Source: a virus. From it: DNA of 11,654 nt. The notes below the pieces were generated by a model that was not told where the DNA came from, did no database searches, and saw only the letters and a program-made list of their open reading frames with translations. The position numbers were made by a program, and so were the translations under genes. Below are positions 2,437-6,461 of the stretch, one piece after another; within the stretch, counting starts at the first letter, position 1, and every line of letters starts with the position of its first letter. The stretch lies in UHGV virus genome UHGV-1617644; one strand, written 5' to 3'.

Positions 2437-2789
2437 TACGCCTCCGATGTAACAGTCGTTATTCCATAAAGAGTGTCGATTTCAGCGGAAAACATGACAC
2501 GTCGGGTCGTGGTATCCAGCGTCGTATTGAAAGAGAGGATTGATTTAACGCCCTGCGTTTCGAGGATGCGCTTACGGATCGCCAGGTTGTAGGTTTCCGG
2601 CTTCTGCTTACCGAGTACGGACTGGATCCACGGAGTCCCCTCGGTGGTGTCGAGAAACCATTGCCCATACCACAATTCGAATCGCGTTTTTACCGCCTGC
2701 GCCACGGCCTCCGGTGAGTTAATCAGCCAGGTGTCATCACCGCAGCCAAAGGTGTAATCGCCATCGGCGTCTTCACGTCTGTATCGCAT
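2436..2789 (-). CDS. Baseplate wedge/assembly protein (117 aa; gpW / gp25-position equivalent)
   Basis: Translationally coupled between the spike and baseplate-J genes; size typical of gpW-like proteins. Synteny only; sequence not recognised. Confidence 0.5.
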   Translation of the reverse strand: MRYRREDADGDYTFGCGDDTWLINSPEAVAQAVKTRFELWYGQWFLDTTEGTPWIQSVLGKQKPETYNLAIRKRILETQGVKSILSFNTTLDTTTRRVMFSAEIDTLYGITTVTSEA

Positions 2790-3541
2790 CAGTTTACCCC
2801 GTCGGTACTGCTTTCACCGCGCTGAACACCACCATGAGTGTGCGTATCATCGATTGGCTTGCCGTTAGCCTTCACGCTCCCCAAAAACTCAACAGCACCA
2901 GTGATTTTTGAAGCCACACCAGAAACCACAGACCCCACCATGCCCCCCATCCAGGTTAACAGGCCATGAATGGTTACTTTCTCAGAAAAATCAGCCAGGG
3001 GGGCAACCACATCAAGCCCCCCCGGAGCGACAATTTTAATTTTCCTGGTATCAGGATTAAGCTCAAAATAGGTGCTGCCGTCGTCACTACGCAACTGTGT
3101 GGCACTGGTATTAATACCGCTAATCTTCCTAGCCTGCGACTGGGGACCGACAATACAAAACGCATCCGATAAATCATGCATTCTGTCATCGACCGGCTCC
3201 TGTATCCCGCCACTCTGCCACCAGAAATCAATACAACGATCGGCAAAAACGACAAGACACTCATCCCCGGCTTTAACCGGAAAAGTCAACGTACAGCCTC
3301 CGCCGCGCGGAAATACCACTGGCACATCCACCAGCAACGGGTAATTTTTGGTAATGCGGTTACCGTCGTTATCCTTTTCAACCGAACGGATAGCTGGCTG
3401 CACAACCGCCGTCACCGCGTCGGGATCGAATGACTGAACAATGCCAGGCAAGGCGACACGGATCTGGTTCTTTGTTGTTTCCCGTTCAGATTTGAATGTT
3501 TCGGCAAGGTCGCCGCTGCGGGTCTGGTCAGATACTGCCAT
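2789..3541 (-). CDS. Baseplate central spike protein (250 aa; P2 gpV / Mu gp45-like position)
   Basis: GGAG 8 nt before ATG; first gene of the spike-wedge-J-I-fibre block; C-terminal Gly-rich region with a THTH motif that I recall resembling the His-containing apex of gpV-type spikes. Confidence 0.6.
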   Translation of the reverse strand: MAVSDQTRSGDLAETFKSERETTKNQIRVALPGIVQSFDPDAVTAVVQPAIRSVEKDNDGNRITKNYPLLVDVPVVFPRGGGCTLTFPVKAGDECLVVFADRCIDFWWQSGGIQEPVDDRMHDLSDAFCIVGPQSQARKISGINTSATQLRSDDGSTYFELNPDTRKIKIVAPGGLDVVAPLADFSEKVTIHGLLTWMGGMVGSVVSGVASKITGAVEFLGSVKANGKPIDDTHTHGGVQRGESSTDGVN

Positions 3542-3560
3542 TTAGTAGGCTCCAGAAAGC

Positions 3561-3590
3561 AAAAAACCCGCCAGATGGCGGGTTTTTATT
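3561..3590. terminator. Rho-independent hairpin terminator, bidirectional by sequence (AAAAAA-CCCGCC-AGAT-GGCGGG-TTTTTATT)
   Basis: Perfect 6-bp GC-rich stem (3567-3572 / 3577-3582), 4-nt loop, A-tract upstream and T-tract downstream. On the minus strand it reads CCCGCC-ATCT-GGCGGG-TTTTTTGCTTT, about 20 nt after the 131-aa stop. Confidence 0.65.
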
Positions 3591-3606
3591 AATAAATCAG
3601 TTAGAC

Positions 3607-4002
3607 CTAAACGGCTACATCAGTCTTCATTTGTTCCCATTGAGAAAAAATTGTTTTTACTTCCAAGATTGATTGTTGTGCCATTGCTTTATTTATGCCA
3701 CAACTACTTAAATCATAATCAGCCTCATTCCGAGCTAACCTCTGTTGCTCAAGTTTGTAAGCCATAGATTTTAGACTTCGAGGATCATAGGGTTCCAGTT
3801 TATTTTCTCCCTTATTTTTAAGATAAGAGATAAGGCTGGCATGATGATCCCGAGTATAAGCAGGAAGACTAGTTAGATTATCTTTAATTTCATGGTAGAG
3901 AGCGTAATATGCTCGTGAAATAGCATTACGATAACCAATCTCACAATCTTCAGCAAAACAACGTTCGGCCGAAGACAAAAACTCAGAACTAGTTATAGGC
4001 AT
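3607..4002 (-). CDS. Small alpha-helical protein with HEPN-like signatures (131 aa), second gene of the cassette
   Basis: ATG at 4002 lies inside the last codons of the 256-aa ORF; weak SD AAGAG. Contains RAYYALYHE (residues 30-38, an R-x6-H spacing) and LARNEADYD (residues 89-97, R-N-x3-Y where HEPN families usually have R-x4-6-H). Assignment is from recalled motif patterns, not an HMM hit. Confidence 0.7.
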   Translation of the reverse strand: MPITSSEFLSSAERCFAEDCEIGYRNAISRAYYALYHEIKDNLTSLPAYTRDHHASLISYLKNKGENKLEPYDPRSLKSMAYKLEQQRLARNEADYDLSSCGINKAMAQQSILEVKTIFSQWEQMKTDVAV

Positions 4003-4759
4003 ATTTACACTCTTTTAATCCATTTCTTTCAACGGAAAATCTTGCTATCAGGTTACAATCATCAAGCAAATCGATCGAGCAGATTTCATCAGCAAGTCGC
4101 ATATTCATTGCAACAACCCGCTCTGGAGACGCCTTAACCACCTCAACCAAATACGTTCCACCAGACGCCCCGTTAATGTCCGCGCGATATTCAGTTGACG
4201 GGAATTCAGCCATAACTCTGTGCACAGCCAAGGCAACTTGCCTATATTGCTCTGAAGAGCACCCTGAATTTTTATAAGCTTCATCCATATCGTTAATTAC
4301 CTCCTGCAAGAAGGTTTCTGCGTCATCCCTATGCTCTTCTTCGGATAACATTTTGCAATGACGCCCTAAATACTCCACGCATTTCGATAGTTTCCCTACC
4401 AAGTACGCAACGCCGCCAGCTTTGTAAGTAAACCACTTTGTAGGAAACTTATCAGCTAAAGAATATATGTAGTAATCCAGTTTTTCGAGTAGAGAAAATC
4501 GCTCGAGAAGTTTACAAAAGATCCGTGCGAAATTAACGTCAGCATGTGGAAGGATGACCTCAAGCGACTCAATCCCAAAGAGCACCTCACCCTTAGCTAT
4601 ATAAGCCAACGCTACAAGTGCTTCAGCCATAGGAGTATGATTAGAACCATACTCCGAAACCACTTCTCGGAAAGTCCACATATCAAGTGGCTCCCCACTG
4701 TTGATTACATTAATCAACTGGTCAAAACGCTCTTCGGCTTTTAGTTTTGGTCTCGCCAC
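3989..4759 (-). CDS. Hypothetical protein (256 aa from GTG at 4759; alternatively 230 aa from ATG at 4681), first gene of a two-gene cassette
   Basis: Low-GC ORF with no motif I recognise; no nucleotidyltransferase GSxxRG...DxD motif and no CxxC zinc-finger spacing. GTG at 4759 has a weak SD; the in-frame ATG at 4681 has GGGGAG 9 nt upstream. Its 3' end overlaps the next gene by 14 nt. Confidence 0.7.
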   Translation of the reverse strand: MARPKLKAEERFDQLINVINSGEPLDMWTFREVVSEYGSNHTPMAEALVALAYIAKGEVLFGIESLEVILPHADVNFARIFCKLLERFSLLEKLDYYIYSLADKFPTKWFTYKAGGVAYLVGKLSKCVEYLGRHCKMLSEEEHRDDAETFLQEVINDMDEAYKNSGCSSEQYRQVALAVHRVMAEFPSTEYRADINGASGGTYLVEVVKASPERVVAMNMRLADEICSIDLLDDCNLIARFSVERNGLKECKYAYN

Positions 4760-4789
4760 AGTTCACTCACTACTTATTTTTTGTCAGAT

Positions 4790-4817
4790 TTTATGTTCGC
4801 GTATACAGTTTAGTCAA
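4790..4817 (-). promoter_or_regulatory. Candidate sigma70-type promoter for the two-gene cassette (-35 TTGACT, 16-nt spacer, -10 CATAAA)
   Basis: Read on the minus strand in the 173-bp AT-rich intergenic region upstream of the 256-aa ORF: TTGACT (4817-4812) and CATAAA (4795-4790). The -10 matches consensus at only 4/6; judged by eye. Confidence 0.3.
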
Positions 4818-4932
4818 TCCACATCTGATCTACTTAGTAGTTTCGCACAAAATCCCCCTTAGAAAATGAATCTCTAGATTTTACTACGAGCCCATTTCCC
4901 TGAAAAATCGAGGATTTTCTACTCTAGTGCCA

Positions 4933-5394
4933 TTAGAACCCTTTTGATTTTGCAACACGAATACCACCAGCCCAACCATTAAAATCAATCACATTACTAC
5001 CGGGGACAGGATTATTTGTGTTGAAAGCATATCTAGCACCAATTTTCCATGCTTGCGGACTAACACTAGGATCCTTTGACAGTTTTATCCACTCTTTCAT
5101 ACCGTTGTAAATATATTCCTGACAAGAATCCCGGGTTCCTTTGCGGTTGGTGTATGCGTCCAAATCATTACATTGCTGGAATGTGTTCCTGATGATGTCA
5201 GCGAAATCATCTAAGGTCATTGTAAAACGTCGCCCATTCATTGAGAAAAAAGGCTTCACAGATGCGTAATGTTGCCATTCCGTAAACTTTTGCTGCTCCA
5301 TCAGGTCGGCTGCTTTAAATTCAAACTTACCTGGTTCGGCAAAAGAAGTCGTAGAAATCAGCATCGTTATTGCAACTATCACCTGTTTTTTCAC
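4933..5394 (-). CDS. Secreted/periplasmic protein of unknown function (153 aa), accessory gene
   Basis: Classic Sec signal peptide MKKQVIVAITMLISTTSFA|EP; two Cys in the mature part (possible disulfide). GTG start 2 nt after the hub TAA with GGGGAG 7 nt upstream, so translationally coupled. Gene is visibly more AT-rich than the flanking tail genes. Confidence 0.7.
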   Translation of the reverse strand: MKKQVIVAITMLISTTSFAEPGKFEFKAADLMEQQKFTEWQHYASVKPFFSMNGRRFTMTLDDFADIIRNTFQQCNDLDAYTNRKGTRDSCQEYIYNGMKEWIKLSKDPSVSPQAWKIGARYAFNTNNPVPGSNVIDFNGWAGGIRVAKSKGF

Positions 5395-5396
5395 GC

Positions 5397-6461
5397 TTAC
5401 GCTCCCCGTTGCATTGCCAACTGGCTAGGTATATCGCTAGCCCCACGCGCTTCGCACATCATATCCATGTACCACGCCTGGCCCCTTGTGTCGCCAGTGT
5501 ACATAATCCCGCGAACAATATAAACGCCATCCGTTGCGATGCTGGCAGGCTGCGATGTGGTGCCGCTTAGCGTAATATTTCCGTCCGTGTTCTGGTCGGT
5601 GATCTGCCCACCAGCCATCGCAATATCGTTGTTCGACAACGCGGTACGATAGACGGAAGCCTGATCCAGCTGAATGAGCCCGTTAACCCGGATGTTCGGA
5701 TTAATAAGAGCGCGGACGTTTACGCCGTTGCCGATGGTCTGCTGCGGCATGCCAATAAGCCCGGTAGCACTGTTGAGCACAATCGCTTCGTGAACATATT
5801 CATTAGTCGCCACCATCTGGCGCTGACCGTCCACGAATTGCCATGTTGCGCCACATTGCCCGGCTACGTTATCCATTAGATGCCGCGTCATGCCAAAGAG
5901 CACCCGCCCCCGGGGGAATACAGTAGCAGGCATTTCAGGCGTCAGGCCTTCGGTCACACCTTTGGCTTCGAAGTCTTTCATCAGCGCACGGTTCACATCA
6001 GCGACCGTGTAACCGGCAGCCAGCGTCTGTGAGGTTATACTGGTGGCAAAAGCCAGATCAGTATCTGCTGCCTGAATCAGGACGTAGGAATCAACCGGAC
6101 TGTCTTTTCCTGTGACCGAGTAGCGAATTTCACCGCTGAAAATCAGTCCGTAGTTGCGCCCATCACTCTGGCCCACGTCCGCCGCGTCAACTTCCCGCAC
6201 TGTCCCGACGTCGCTTGCCGACACCTCCGGCGCGATACCGTCGTAACCCGCAATCAGACGCACTTTCGAAAACTCCTGCCCGGTAATTCGGTTCACAGTA
6301 TCTGCCGAAAGGTTATAAATTTTGATAGTCCCTACCCGGGACGCGCTGCTGATGTTGAACCAGTCGATCGTAAAGGTGACTTTAAAATCACTTAGCTCAA
6401 TTCCCTGACCGTTCCCGTCCACAAGCTGCAGCTCGAAATGTCTCATCCAGTTCTGTGACAT
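5397..6461 (-). CDS. Baseplate hub protein (354 aa; Mu gp44 / P2 gpD-like position)
   Basis: GGAG 5 nt before ATG; position immediately before the spike module and size fit a hub protein. Synteny-based call. Confidence 0.6.
   Translation of the reverse strand: MSQNWMRHFELQLVDGNGQGIELSDFKVTFTIDWFNISSASRVGTIKIYNLSADTVNRITGQEFSKVRLIAGYDGIAPEVSASDVGTVREVDAADVGQSDGRNYGLIFSGEIRYSVTGKDSPVDSYVLIQAADTDLAFATSITSQTLAAGYTVADVNRALMKDFEAKGVTEGLTPEMPATVFPRGRVLFGMTRHLMDNVAGQCGATWQFVDGQRQMVATNEYVHEAIVLNSATGLIGMPQQTIGNGVNVRALINPNIRVNGLIQLDQASVYRTALSNNDIAMAGGQITDQNTDGNITLSGTTSQPASIATDGVYIVRGIMYTGDTRGQAWYMDMMCEARGASDIPSQLAMQRGA

What the first reader, a model, noticed from the sequence alone, without database searches (positions are those of the whole stretch)
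3607..4002. 131-aa protein has HEPN-like helix-1 and R-N-x3-Y motifs, with Tyr where the catalytic His is expected
RAYYALYHE (residues 30-38; nt about 3915-3889) resembles the aromatic-rich first helix of HEPN domains, and LARNEADYD (residues 89-97; nt about 3738-3712) has the R-[polar]-x3 spacing of the R-x4-6-H RNase motif but ends in Y. This could be a divergent active HEPN RNase or a catalytically inactive HEPN acting as regulator or antitoxin. Both readings are inference.
Basis: partly seen in the sequence, partly recalled or inferred. Interest (0 to 1): 0.6.

Follow-up and report, generated by a model that had tools for sequence, protein, structure and literature searches.

The report
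Prophage HEPN protein with TPR-like partner
The 131-residue protein is a real member of a known HEPN (RNA-nuclease-like) subfamily in which Tyr/Asp normally replace the textbook catalytic His. The less ordinary part is that it travels between phages as a two-gene cassette with an uncharacterised TPR-like partner rather than the usual nucleotidyltransferase antitoxin.

Summary

Tyr in place of His is not new. It is the norm for the AF0298-like branch of HEPN-T (PF05168).

The new part is the context:
- The gene overlaps by 14 nt an upstream 256-aa gene. Its product is predicted to be a TPR-like solenoid plus a small alpha/beta domain, with no MNT and no enzyme signature.
- The pair has its own promoter-like site and terminator. 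It sits in a low-GC cargo slot between the baseplate hub and spike genes of an E. coli prophage.
- The same pair recurs as an inserted accessory cassette (a "moron") in at least four to five different phage contexts.

Best reading (inference): a toxin/abortive-infection-type cassette, with a non-canonical HEPN RNase held in check by a TPR-like partner. Activity and toxicity are untested. I rate it a new variant of a known kind, of moderate interest.

The parts
3607..4002 (-). 131-aa AF0298-like (UPF0332 / PF05168 HEPN-T) HEPN-domain protein; putative effector
3889..3918 (-). S29-R-A-Y-Y-A-L-Y-H37-E38 signature in the second helix (SRAYYxxxH)
   Evidence: Invariant or near-invariant. The same signature was the search pattern that recovered 59 relatives.
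3841..3852 (-). R51-D52-H53-H54: the alternative conserved His, at the end of the loop between helix 2 and the inserted helix
   Evidence: Invariant. H54 is at least 90% conserved. It aligns with the conserved His of AF0298 and 9xbd and of the MNT-linked set (H57 of A5). The predicted role comes from PMC3710099.
3715..3732 (-). R91-N-E-A-D95-Y96: the variant of the Rx4-6H motif (R kept, D-Y instead of H) at the end of helix 74-99
   Evidence: The same RNxxDYD is seen in PDB 9xbd, and 9xbc is its Y-to-F mutant.
3989..4759 (-). 256-aa partner gene. Its stop overlaps the HEPN start by 14 nt. Predicted TPR-like helical repeats (about residues 8-137), long helices, a small alpha/beta C-terminal module (about 189-245) and a disordered tail ending in Y-A-Y
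4788..4817 (-). Sigma-70-like promoter candidate (TTGACT-18-TAAAAT, 10/12), about 29 nt upstream of the partner's GTG start
   Evidence: This is a consensus match only; the number of such sites in the region is no higher than in shuffles.
3562..3587 (-). Intrinsic terminator hairpin (11-bp stem, T-run), 20 nt after the HEPN stop codon
3542..5396 (-). Low-GC cargo slot (36-46% GC against 50-57% in the flanks) between the baseplate-hub gene (5397-6461) and the spike gene (2789-3541) of the prophage
   Evidence: Composition. Flanking Pfam hits. Other cargo occupies the same slot in other E. coli strains and phages.

Best explanation
The 131-aa protein is a HEPN-domain protein of the AF0298-like (UPF0332, Pfam PF05168 'HEPN-T') branch. 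In this branch the textbook Rx4-6H motif is replaced by R-x3-D-Y, and a conserved His is supplied from the insert between helices 2 and 3. Here the candidate site is H53/H54 with R91, and probably D95/Y96, E21, R25 and R30.

It is the downstream, translationally coupled gene of an autonomous two-gene cassette (promoter-like site, 256-aa partner, HEPN, terminator). The cassette lies in a cargo slot of a prophage tail/baseplate module.

Most likely mechanism (inferred, not shown): the HEPN protein is a metal-independent RNase-type toxin or effector. The partner is a non-enzymatic TPR-like protein that binds and restrains it, taking the place of the MNT antitoxin used by related HEPNs. On a trigger such as infection by another phage or loss of the partner, the HEPN is freed and cleaves RNA. 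The outcome would be abortive infection, superinfection exclusion or addiction.

Shown here: fold and family membership, motif conservation, gene coupling, conservation of the pair, and mobility of the cassette.
Inferred: RNase activity, toxicity, neutralisation by the partner, and a defence role.
For: Family and fold:
- Pfam HEPN E 0.0023.
- 72 of 150 family representatives hit PF05168, best E 4e-9.
- The PDB profile search finds only HEPN proteins at E < 0.02.
- hhalign to MNT-linked AF0298-like HEPNs gives 98.35%, E 1e-14.

Candidate active site:
- E21, R25, R30, H37, H54, R91, D95 and Y96 are at least 90% conserved across 150 representatives.
- The alternative-His model for exactly this subfamily is in PMC3710099.

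Operon:
- 14-nt overlap, with overlaps of 1-17 nt in relatives.
- A promoter-like site and a terminator.

Partner:
- TPR-like model.
- No conserved catalytic-type residues across the wider partner family.
- It evolves faster than the HEPN: 56-63% against 71-78% identity in the same contigs, as antitoxins and sensors usually do.

Mobility:
- The same pair is found in the hub/spike slot of Klebsiella, Trabulsiella, Citrobacter and Pseudocitrobacter prophages.
- It is found in a siphovirus-type tail module next to an MliC gene.
- It is found upstream of the tape-measure gene of a Klebsiella phage, between the B-like and A-like genes of a P2-like Vibrio phage, and (partner homology marginal) after the tape-measure gene of a Pseudomonas phage.
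- In other E. coli strains the same slot holds a YafO-toxin pair.

Related HEPNs are paired with MNT antitoxins in 14 of 40 neighbourhoods. This shows that the clade's ancestors were toxin-antitoxin toxins.
Against: - No experimental data exist for this protein or, as far as I could find, for RNase activity of any AF0298-type HEPN.
- The canonical catalytic His is absent.
- The Pfam score of the window protein itself is below the gathering threshold.
- PADLOC has no model for the pair, only a weak generic HEPN_IX hit.
It rests on the 2013 analysis of 2hsb.
- No complex model could be made, so the partner-HEPN contact is inferred from gene coupling alone.
- The promoter call is a consensus match at background frequency.
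Confidence: 0.5

Rival explanations
1. The HEPN domain is catalytically dead. It works as an RNA-, nucleotide- or protein-binding adaptor or regulator together with the TPR-like protein. The pair would have a non-toxic accessory function for the prophage, for example regulation or counter-defence by sequestering a molecule.
For: The canonical His of Rx4-6H is missing. Inactive HEPN domains that serve as binding modules are well documented (PMC3710099). No toxicity data exist. Neither protein matches a curated defence model.
Against: Eight polar residues, including a His and two Arg, are at least 90% conserved across very divergent representatives. According to PMC3710099, truly inactive HEPNs lack conserved charged and polar residues. 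The same residues are kept in MNT-linked relatives that sit in toxin-antitoxin-type operons.
Confidence: 0.25
2. The pair is a phage tail or baseplate accessory (assembly chaperone or structural decoration). It is expressed with the late genes and has nothing to do with toxins or immunity.
For: It lies inside the tail/baseplate operon in the same orientation. TPR-like proteins are often chaperones. Several homologous cassettes also lie in tail-gene regions.
Against: - Only 10 of 307 E. coli genomes with this prophage region carry the pair, and related phages have other cargo or almost none in the slot, so it is dispensable for tail assembly.
- It is low in GC and has its own terminator.
- It also occurs between the late-control and replication genes of a P2-like Vibrio phage, and in chromosomal contexts without adjacent tail genes.
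- HEPN domains have no known structural role in virions (my own knowledge).
Confidence: 0.1
3. It is a cryptic type VII HepT/MntA-like system. The 256-aa partner would be a highly diverged nucleotidyltransferase that AMPylates Y96 to neutralise the HEPN.
For: Relatives of the HEPN are paired with MNTs. In canonical HepT the Tyr of RX4HXY is the AMP acceptor (PMC11586414; PMC7641770). A Y-to-F mutant of the equivalent Tyr in an MNT-type relative has been crystallised, 9xbc.
Against: - The partner has no NTP_transf_2 or Polbeta hit, whereas true MNT neighbours score E 1e-11 to 1e-13 in the same scan.
- Its model is a TPR-like solenoid plus a beta-beta-alpha-beta module without the G[GS]...DxD arrangement.
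- Across the wider partner family no acidic or Gly-Ser catalytic motif is conserved.
Confidence: 0.05

Closest known systems
AF0298 / UPF0332-type HEPN-T proteins (Pfam PF05168; PDB 2hsb, and the unpublished 9xbd/9xbc 'HEPN domain-containing protein')
   Different: Those proteins are typically encoded next to a minimal nucleotidyltransferase (14 of 40 neighbourhoods). Here, and in a proteobacterial/phage clade, the neighbour is a roughly 250-aa TPR-like protein. This clade also has a longer segment between the inserted helix and the motif helix (NKxENKLEPYD).
HepT/MntA (HEPN-MNT) type VII toxin-antitoxin systems (e.g. SO_3166/SO_3165; Aphanizomenon HEPN/MNT; Legionella)
   Different: The canonical RX4HXY RNase motif is absent. 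The partner is not an MNT. Neutralisation by AMPylation is therefore unlikely. HepT proteins belong to the DUF86 / HEPN-M branch, not HEPN-T (PMC3710099).
AbiV, and AbiU2 with its Sel1-repeat partner (lactococcal abortive-infection HEPN proteins)
   Same: [quoted passage not shown] It also notes that AbiU2 is in an operon with a Sel1 (TPR-like) repeat protein. These are precedents for a non-canonical HEPN and for a HEPN paired with a repeat protein in phage defence.
   Different: No sequence match to AbiV or AbiU2 models in PADLOC. AbiV is 201 aa and is reported to be controlled by an RNA antitoxin (bioRxiv 10.1101/2024.05.05.592566). No RNA-family match above threshold and no tandem repeat was found here.
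Prophage-encoded HEPN abortive-infection proteins HepS (Gifsy-1) and Tha (S. aureus prophages)
   Same: HEPN effectors carried by prophages that defend the lysogen, triggered by structural proteins of incoming phages (PMC13043305; PMC11087260).
   Different: As described in those papers' abstracts, HepS is a single-protein system and Tha is a different, staphylococcal system. Homology of either to this protein was not tested here. This locus is a two-protein cassette with a separate putative sensor or inhibitor and a non-canonical motif.

Membership tests
HEPN superfamily | All-alpha up-down helical bundle of the HEPN type | tested here: met
HEPN superfamily | Significant profile similarity to HEPN families | tested here: met
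   The protein's own Pfam PF05168 score is sub-threshold (18.5 against 22 bits, E 0.0023). However, 72 of 150 family representatives hit PF05168, with a best E of 4e-9. hhalign to MNT-linked HEPNs gives 98.35%, E 1e-14. The PDB profile search hits 9xbd and 2hsb at E 0.003-0.005.
HEPN superfamily | Rx4-6H catalytic motif at the end of core helix 3 | tested here: not met
   R91 is present, but Y96 lies where the His would be at x4 spacing (D95 at x3), and there is no His within 4-6 residues.
HEPN superfamily | Metal-independent endoRNase activity | not testable with these tools
   This needs biochemistry.
AF0298-like branch of HEPN-T (PF05168 / UPF0332) | Motif Arg kept, motif His absent (D or D-Y in its place) | tested here: met
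   R91...D95-Y96 is conserved at 90% or more. The same is seen in AF0298 (REESDY), 9xbd (RNRSDYD) and the MNT-linked set. The definition is from PMC3710099.
AF0298-like branch of HEPN-T (PF05168 / UPF0332) | [quoted passage not shown] | tested here: met
   H53/H54 is invariant in close homologues. H54 is at least 90% conserved in 150 representatives. It lies at residues 53-54, right after the 42-52 loop of the model. It aligns with the His of AF0298 and 9xbd and with H57 of A5. Its 3D proximity to R91 was not measured.
AF0298-like branch of HEPN-T (PF05168 / UPF0332) | Association with (or fusion to) a minimal nucleotidyltransferase | tested here: not met
   The upstream partner has no NTase hit. 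True MNT neighbours of relatives are detected easily.
[quoted passage not shown] | RX4HXY motif in the toxin, and an MNT antitoxin that AMPylates the Tyr | tested here: not met
   The motif is R-x3-D-Y without His. The partner is TPR-like, not an MNT. AMPylation itself cannot be tested here.
Protein-protein (type II-like) toxin-antitoxin / abortive-infection cassette | Conserved, translationally coupled two-gene operon that moves as a unit between mobile elements | tested here: met
   Overlaps of 1-17 nt are conserved. Pairs are seen in at least four to five different phage contexts and several genera.
Protein-protein (type II-like) toxin-antitoxin / abortive-infection cassette | Toxicity of one component, neutralised by the other; a phage-defence or addiction phenotype | not testable with these tools
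   No experimental report was found for these accessions.
Catalogued anti-phage defence systems (PADLOC-DB 2.0) | Match of the components to a system model | tested here: not met
   There is only a weak generic HEPN_IX hit (E 0.003) and nothing for the partner. Among 150 relatives, 39 hit HEPN_IX and 7 hit the candidate PDC-M05B.

The most novel reading that the evidence does not exclude
The 256-aa and 131-aa pair would be a previously uncatalogued, phage-borne abortive-infection or toxin-antitoxin family. A non-enzymatic TPR-like sensor or inhibitor would have replaced the MNT antitoxin and would directly gate an AF0298-type HEPN RNase that uses the alternative active site (loop His plus Arg plus Asp-Tyr). 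If so, the pair would be a tractable E. coli model for testing whether that long-predicted alternative HEPN active site is real.
Probability: 0.35. Interest if true: 0.6.

Novelty: new variant of a known kind. Interest (0 to 1): 0.42.

Why it matters
The alternative active site of AF0298-type HEPN proteins was predicted in 2013. In the literature I could search, it has not been tested. This E. coli prophage cassette is small and self-contained, and its host is genetically tractable, so the prediction can be tested directly with H53/H54, R91, D95 and Y96 mutants.

If the pair is a defence or addiction module, it shows that a HEPN toxin lineage normally controlled by covalent AMPylation has been re-wired to a repeat-protein partner. 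It would also add a new two-gene system to the cargo repertoire of prophage tail-region hotspots.

If the HEPN is inactive, the finding is an ordinary hypothetical moron.

Tried and rejected
- Single-sequence search against PDB sequences: no hit. The family profile was needed.
- NCBIfam: nothing for any of the three cargo proteins.
- The search for related loci with the 150-sequence alignment failed because no stretch was conserved enough. It was repeated with a 14-sequence alignment.
- Literature: no paper was found for PDB 9xbd/9xbc, for 'UPF0332' together with HEPN, or for the RefSeq accessions of either protein. The DefensePredictor supplements do not list these accessions; its HEPN systems are different proteins. 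The P2/P4 hotspot paper and the NetFlax paper do not describe this pair.
- Type III (RNA antitoxin) idea: no Rfam match above threshold. All weak hits sit on the terminator hairpin, and there are no tandem repeats.
- Cryptic-MNT idea for the partner: rejected.
- A metal-site idea, from the invariant C82, C127, H134, C167, C227 and C235 in close partner homologues: these residues are not conserved in the wider partner family, so they are not a family-defining site.
- The conserved C-terminal Y-A-Y tail as an active-site plug: it is present only in the closer half of the partner family, and is left as speculation.

Full report
**1. What is there**

The window is 100% identical to a prophage tail/baseplate region of E. 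coli PS1Thumoskin9. All large genes lie on the minus strand: tail sheath/tube-like genes, a tape-measure/lytic-transglycosylase gene, the baseplate hub (5397-6461), the spike (2789-3541), baseplate J and others.

Between hub and spike lies a low-GC stretch, 36-46% GC against 50-57% in the flanks. It holds three genes:
- a 153-aa protein with a signal peptide (4933-5394);
- a 256-aa protein (3989-4759);
- the 131-aa target (3607-4002).

The 256-aa and 131-aa genes overlap by 14 nt. A Shine-Dalgarno-like AAAGAG lies inside the end of the upstream gene. A TTGACT-18-TAAAAT site lies about 29 nt upstream of the 256-aa start. A strong hairpin followed by a T-run lies 20 nt after the 131-aa stop. Together this is the classic 'moron' layout of promoter, genes and terminator.

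**2. The observation**

- In 13 homologues of 44-99% identity, R25, N26, S29, R30, Y32, Y33, H37, D52, H53, H54, R88, R91, N92, D95 and Y96 are invariant.
- An exhaustive HMM search found 1671 cluster representatives at E < 1e-3.
- In an alignment of the best 150, E21, R25, R30, Y32, Y33, H37, H54, R91, D95 and Y96 are at least 90% conserved, although mean column identity is only 23%.

**3. Is it a HEPN?**

Yes. The evidence is as follows.
- Pfam PF05168 matches residues 6-119 at E 0.0023. This is 18.5 bits, just under the 22-bit cutoff.
- 72 of the 150 representatives hit PF05168 on their own, with a best E of 4e-9.
- The family profile finds three PDB sequences at E <= 0.011, and all three are HEPN proteins: 9xbd, 9xbc and AF0298/2hsb.
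- An hhalign comparison with 11 relatives that sit next to nucleotidyltransferases gives 98.35% probability and E 1e-14. The SRAYY..H, loop-His and R..DY elements align in register.

**4. The Tyr-for-His issue**

Anantharaman et al. [quoted passage not shown] They name AF0298 (2hsb), with AbiV, as families in which the motif His is absent. [quoted passage not shown]

The window protein fits this description point by point. R91 is kept. D95-Y96 replaces the His. H53/H54 sits right after the 42-52 loop.

The conservation pattern favours a functional polar site over a dead domain. The same paper states that inactive HEPNs lack conserved charged and polar residues.

Two leads, both unproven:
- PDB 9xbc is a Tyr-to-Phe mutant of the equivalent Tyr in an MNT-type relative. 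Its depositors apparently consider this Tyr functional, but I found no paper.
- In canonical HepT toxins the motif Tyr (RX4HXY) is the AMP acceptor. Y96 stays near-invariant in the clade that has no MNT partner, so its role here cannot be only that.

**5. The partner and the cassette**

The 256-aa protein has no Pfam, NCBIfam or PADLOC match. It belongs to phrog_17809, and the HEPN belongs to phrog_5176; both have unknown function.

Its model (pLDDT 88.3) has these parts:
- paired helices at 8-137;
- two long helices;
- a beta-beta-alpha-alpha-beta module at 190-243;
- a disordered tail ending in an invariant Y-A-Y.

The partner evolves faster than the HEPN in the same contigs, 56-63% against 71-78% identity. 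Its most variable part is the N-terminal repeat region (residues 21-80) and its most conserved part is 221-240. That fits a variable sensing surface plus a conserved docking module, but this is inference.

**6. Comparative context**

A pattern scan of GTDB genomes gave 59 loci. I read the gene upstream of each HEPN.
- About 13 loci, from Yersinia, Serratia, Gilliamella, Trabulsiella, Citrobacter, Pseudocitrobacter, Yokenella, Enterobacter and (more weakly) Acidithiobacillus and Pararobbsia, have a homologue of the 256-aa partner overlapping the HEPN start.
- 14 loci have a minimal nucleotidyltransferase. Most of these are archaeal and some are bacterial. In 4 of the 14 the nucleotidyltransferase is fused to a ribbon-helix-helix (RHH) domain.
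- In 4 further loci the HEPN is instead followed by an AAA_16/ORC-CDC6-like ATPase.

The pair occupies the same hub/spike slot in Klebsiella, Trabulsiella, Citrobacter and Pseudocitrobacter prophages. A diverged E. coli allele of 142 aa plus 243 aa also sits there. The pair also occurs:
- in a different, siphovirus-type tail module next to an MliC gene;
- upstream of the tape-measure gene of Klebsiella phage ST405-OXA48phi1.3;
- between the late-control-B-like and replication-A-like genes of a P2-like Vibrio phage;
- after the tape-measure gene of Pseudomonas phage PG1, where partner homology is marginal.

Only 10 of 5426 complete E. coli genomes carry it, and 4 of those 10 are E2348/69-lineage (O127:H6) records. 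By contrast, 307 genomes have the flanking prophage genes. In other strains the slot holds a YafO-toxin pair or other small genes.

So the pair is a dispensable, horizontally mobile unit that keeps its two genes together.

**7. Mechanism**

Best-supported reading, confidence about 0.5: a toxin/abortive-infection-type cassette. An AF0298-type HEPN acts as an RNase using H53/H54 and R91 (with or without D95/Y96). The TPR-like partner restrains it by direct binding and stands in for the MNT antitoxin of the ancestral type VII-like systems.

Shown: family, fold, motif conservation, operon coupling, pair conservation and mobility.
Inferred: catalysis, toxicity, neutralisation, trigger and biological role.

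Rivals:
- an inactive HEPN adaptor (0.25);
- a tail-assembly accessory (0.1);
- a cryptic MNT partner (0.05).

I found no sign of an RNA antitoxin.

**8. Novelty and verdict**

The HEPN assignment and the His-less motif are known biology, so the protein itself is a new member of a known subfamily. The pairing with a TPR-like, non-MNT partner, and its spread as a phage moron, is not in PADLOC or in the papers I could search. I therefore rate the whole as a new variant of a known kind.

Interest is moderate, at 0.42. It is a clean, testable candidate and a handle on the unproven alternative HEPN active site. It is also one of many uncharacterised two-gene prophage cargo modules, and nothing about its activity has been shown.

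Noticed in passing
window 4933-5394 (-): A 153-aa protein with an N-terminal signal peptide (MKKQVIVAITMLISTTSFA/EP), low GC, and no Pfam, NCBIfam, PHROG or PADLOC match. A 64%-identical copy sits next to the hub gene in a strain whose slot carries a YafO pair instead. It is therefore an independent, secreted cargo gene and not part of the HEPN pair. Shorter versions (113-117 aa) occur in E2348/69 and Klebsiella.
   Followed up: partly
window 3542-5396; loci L003, L063, L064, L065: The interval between the baseplate-hub and spike genes of this prophage family (Brunovirus SEN34-like) is a variable cargo hotspot. Different strains and phages hold a YafO-family toxin with a 190-aa upstream gene, a diverged HEPN/partner pair (142 + 243 aa), three unrelated small ORFs, or two small ORFs.
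   Followed up: partly
window 3562-3587 (-): A strong intrinsic terminator sits inside the tail/baseplate gene string, directly upstream of the spike gene. Late transcription must either read through it or restart after it.
   Followed up: no
L072 2501-2896 (Klebsiella phage ST405-OXA48phi1.3, MK416008.1): The HEPN homologue is an intact 131-codon ORF. The GenBank record annotates two short CDSs (QBP08146, QBP08147) in its place, which is a probable mis-annotation.
   Followed up: yes
L009 3258-4004 (Gilliamella apicola): The partner gene is split into 157-aa and 86-aa ORFs, while the HEPN gene stays intact. This could be a frameshifted or pseudogenised partner, which would be unexpected if the HEPN were a lethal toxin. 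The related L010 has an intact 248-aa partner.
   Followed up: no
L020, L032, L049, L062 (Burkholderia, Verrucomicrobiales, Noviherbaspirillum, Armatimonadia): A longer (about 170-184 aa) HEPN-T relative with the same SRAYY/R..ADY motifs is followed, after a gap of 8-15 nt or an overlap, by a roughly 550-aa AAA_16/ORC-CDC6-like ATPase. This is another non-MNT partnership of this HEPN branch.
   Followed up: partly
L042, L048, L053, L057 (Bathyarchaeia): The upstream partner there is a fusion of a ribbon-helix-helix domain with a minimal nucleotidyltransferase (181-196 aa).
   Followed up: partly
window 3989-4759 (-), partner residues C82, C127, H134, C167, C227, C235 and the C-terminal Y253-A-Y255: Six Cys/His residues and the disordered YAY tail are invariant among close partner homologues (at least 48% identity) but are lost in more distant ones. 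Their role is unknown.
   Followed up: partly
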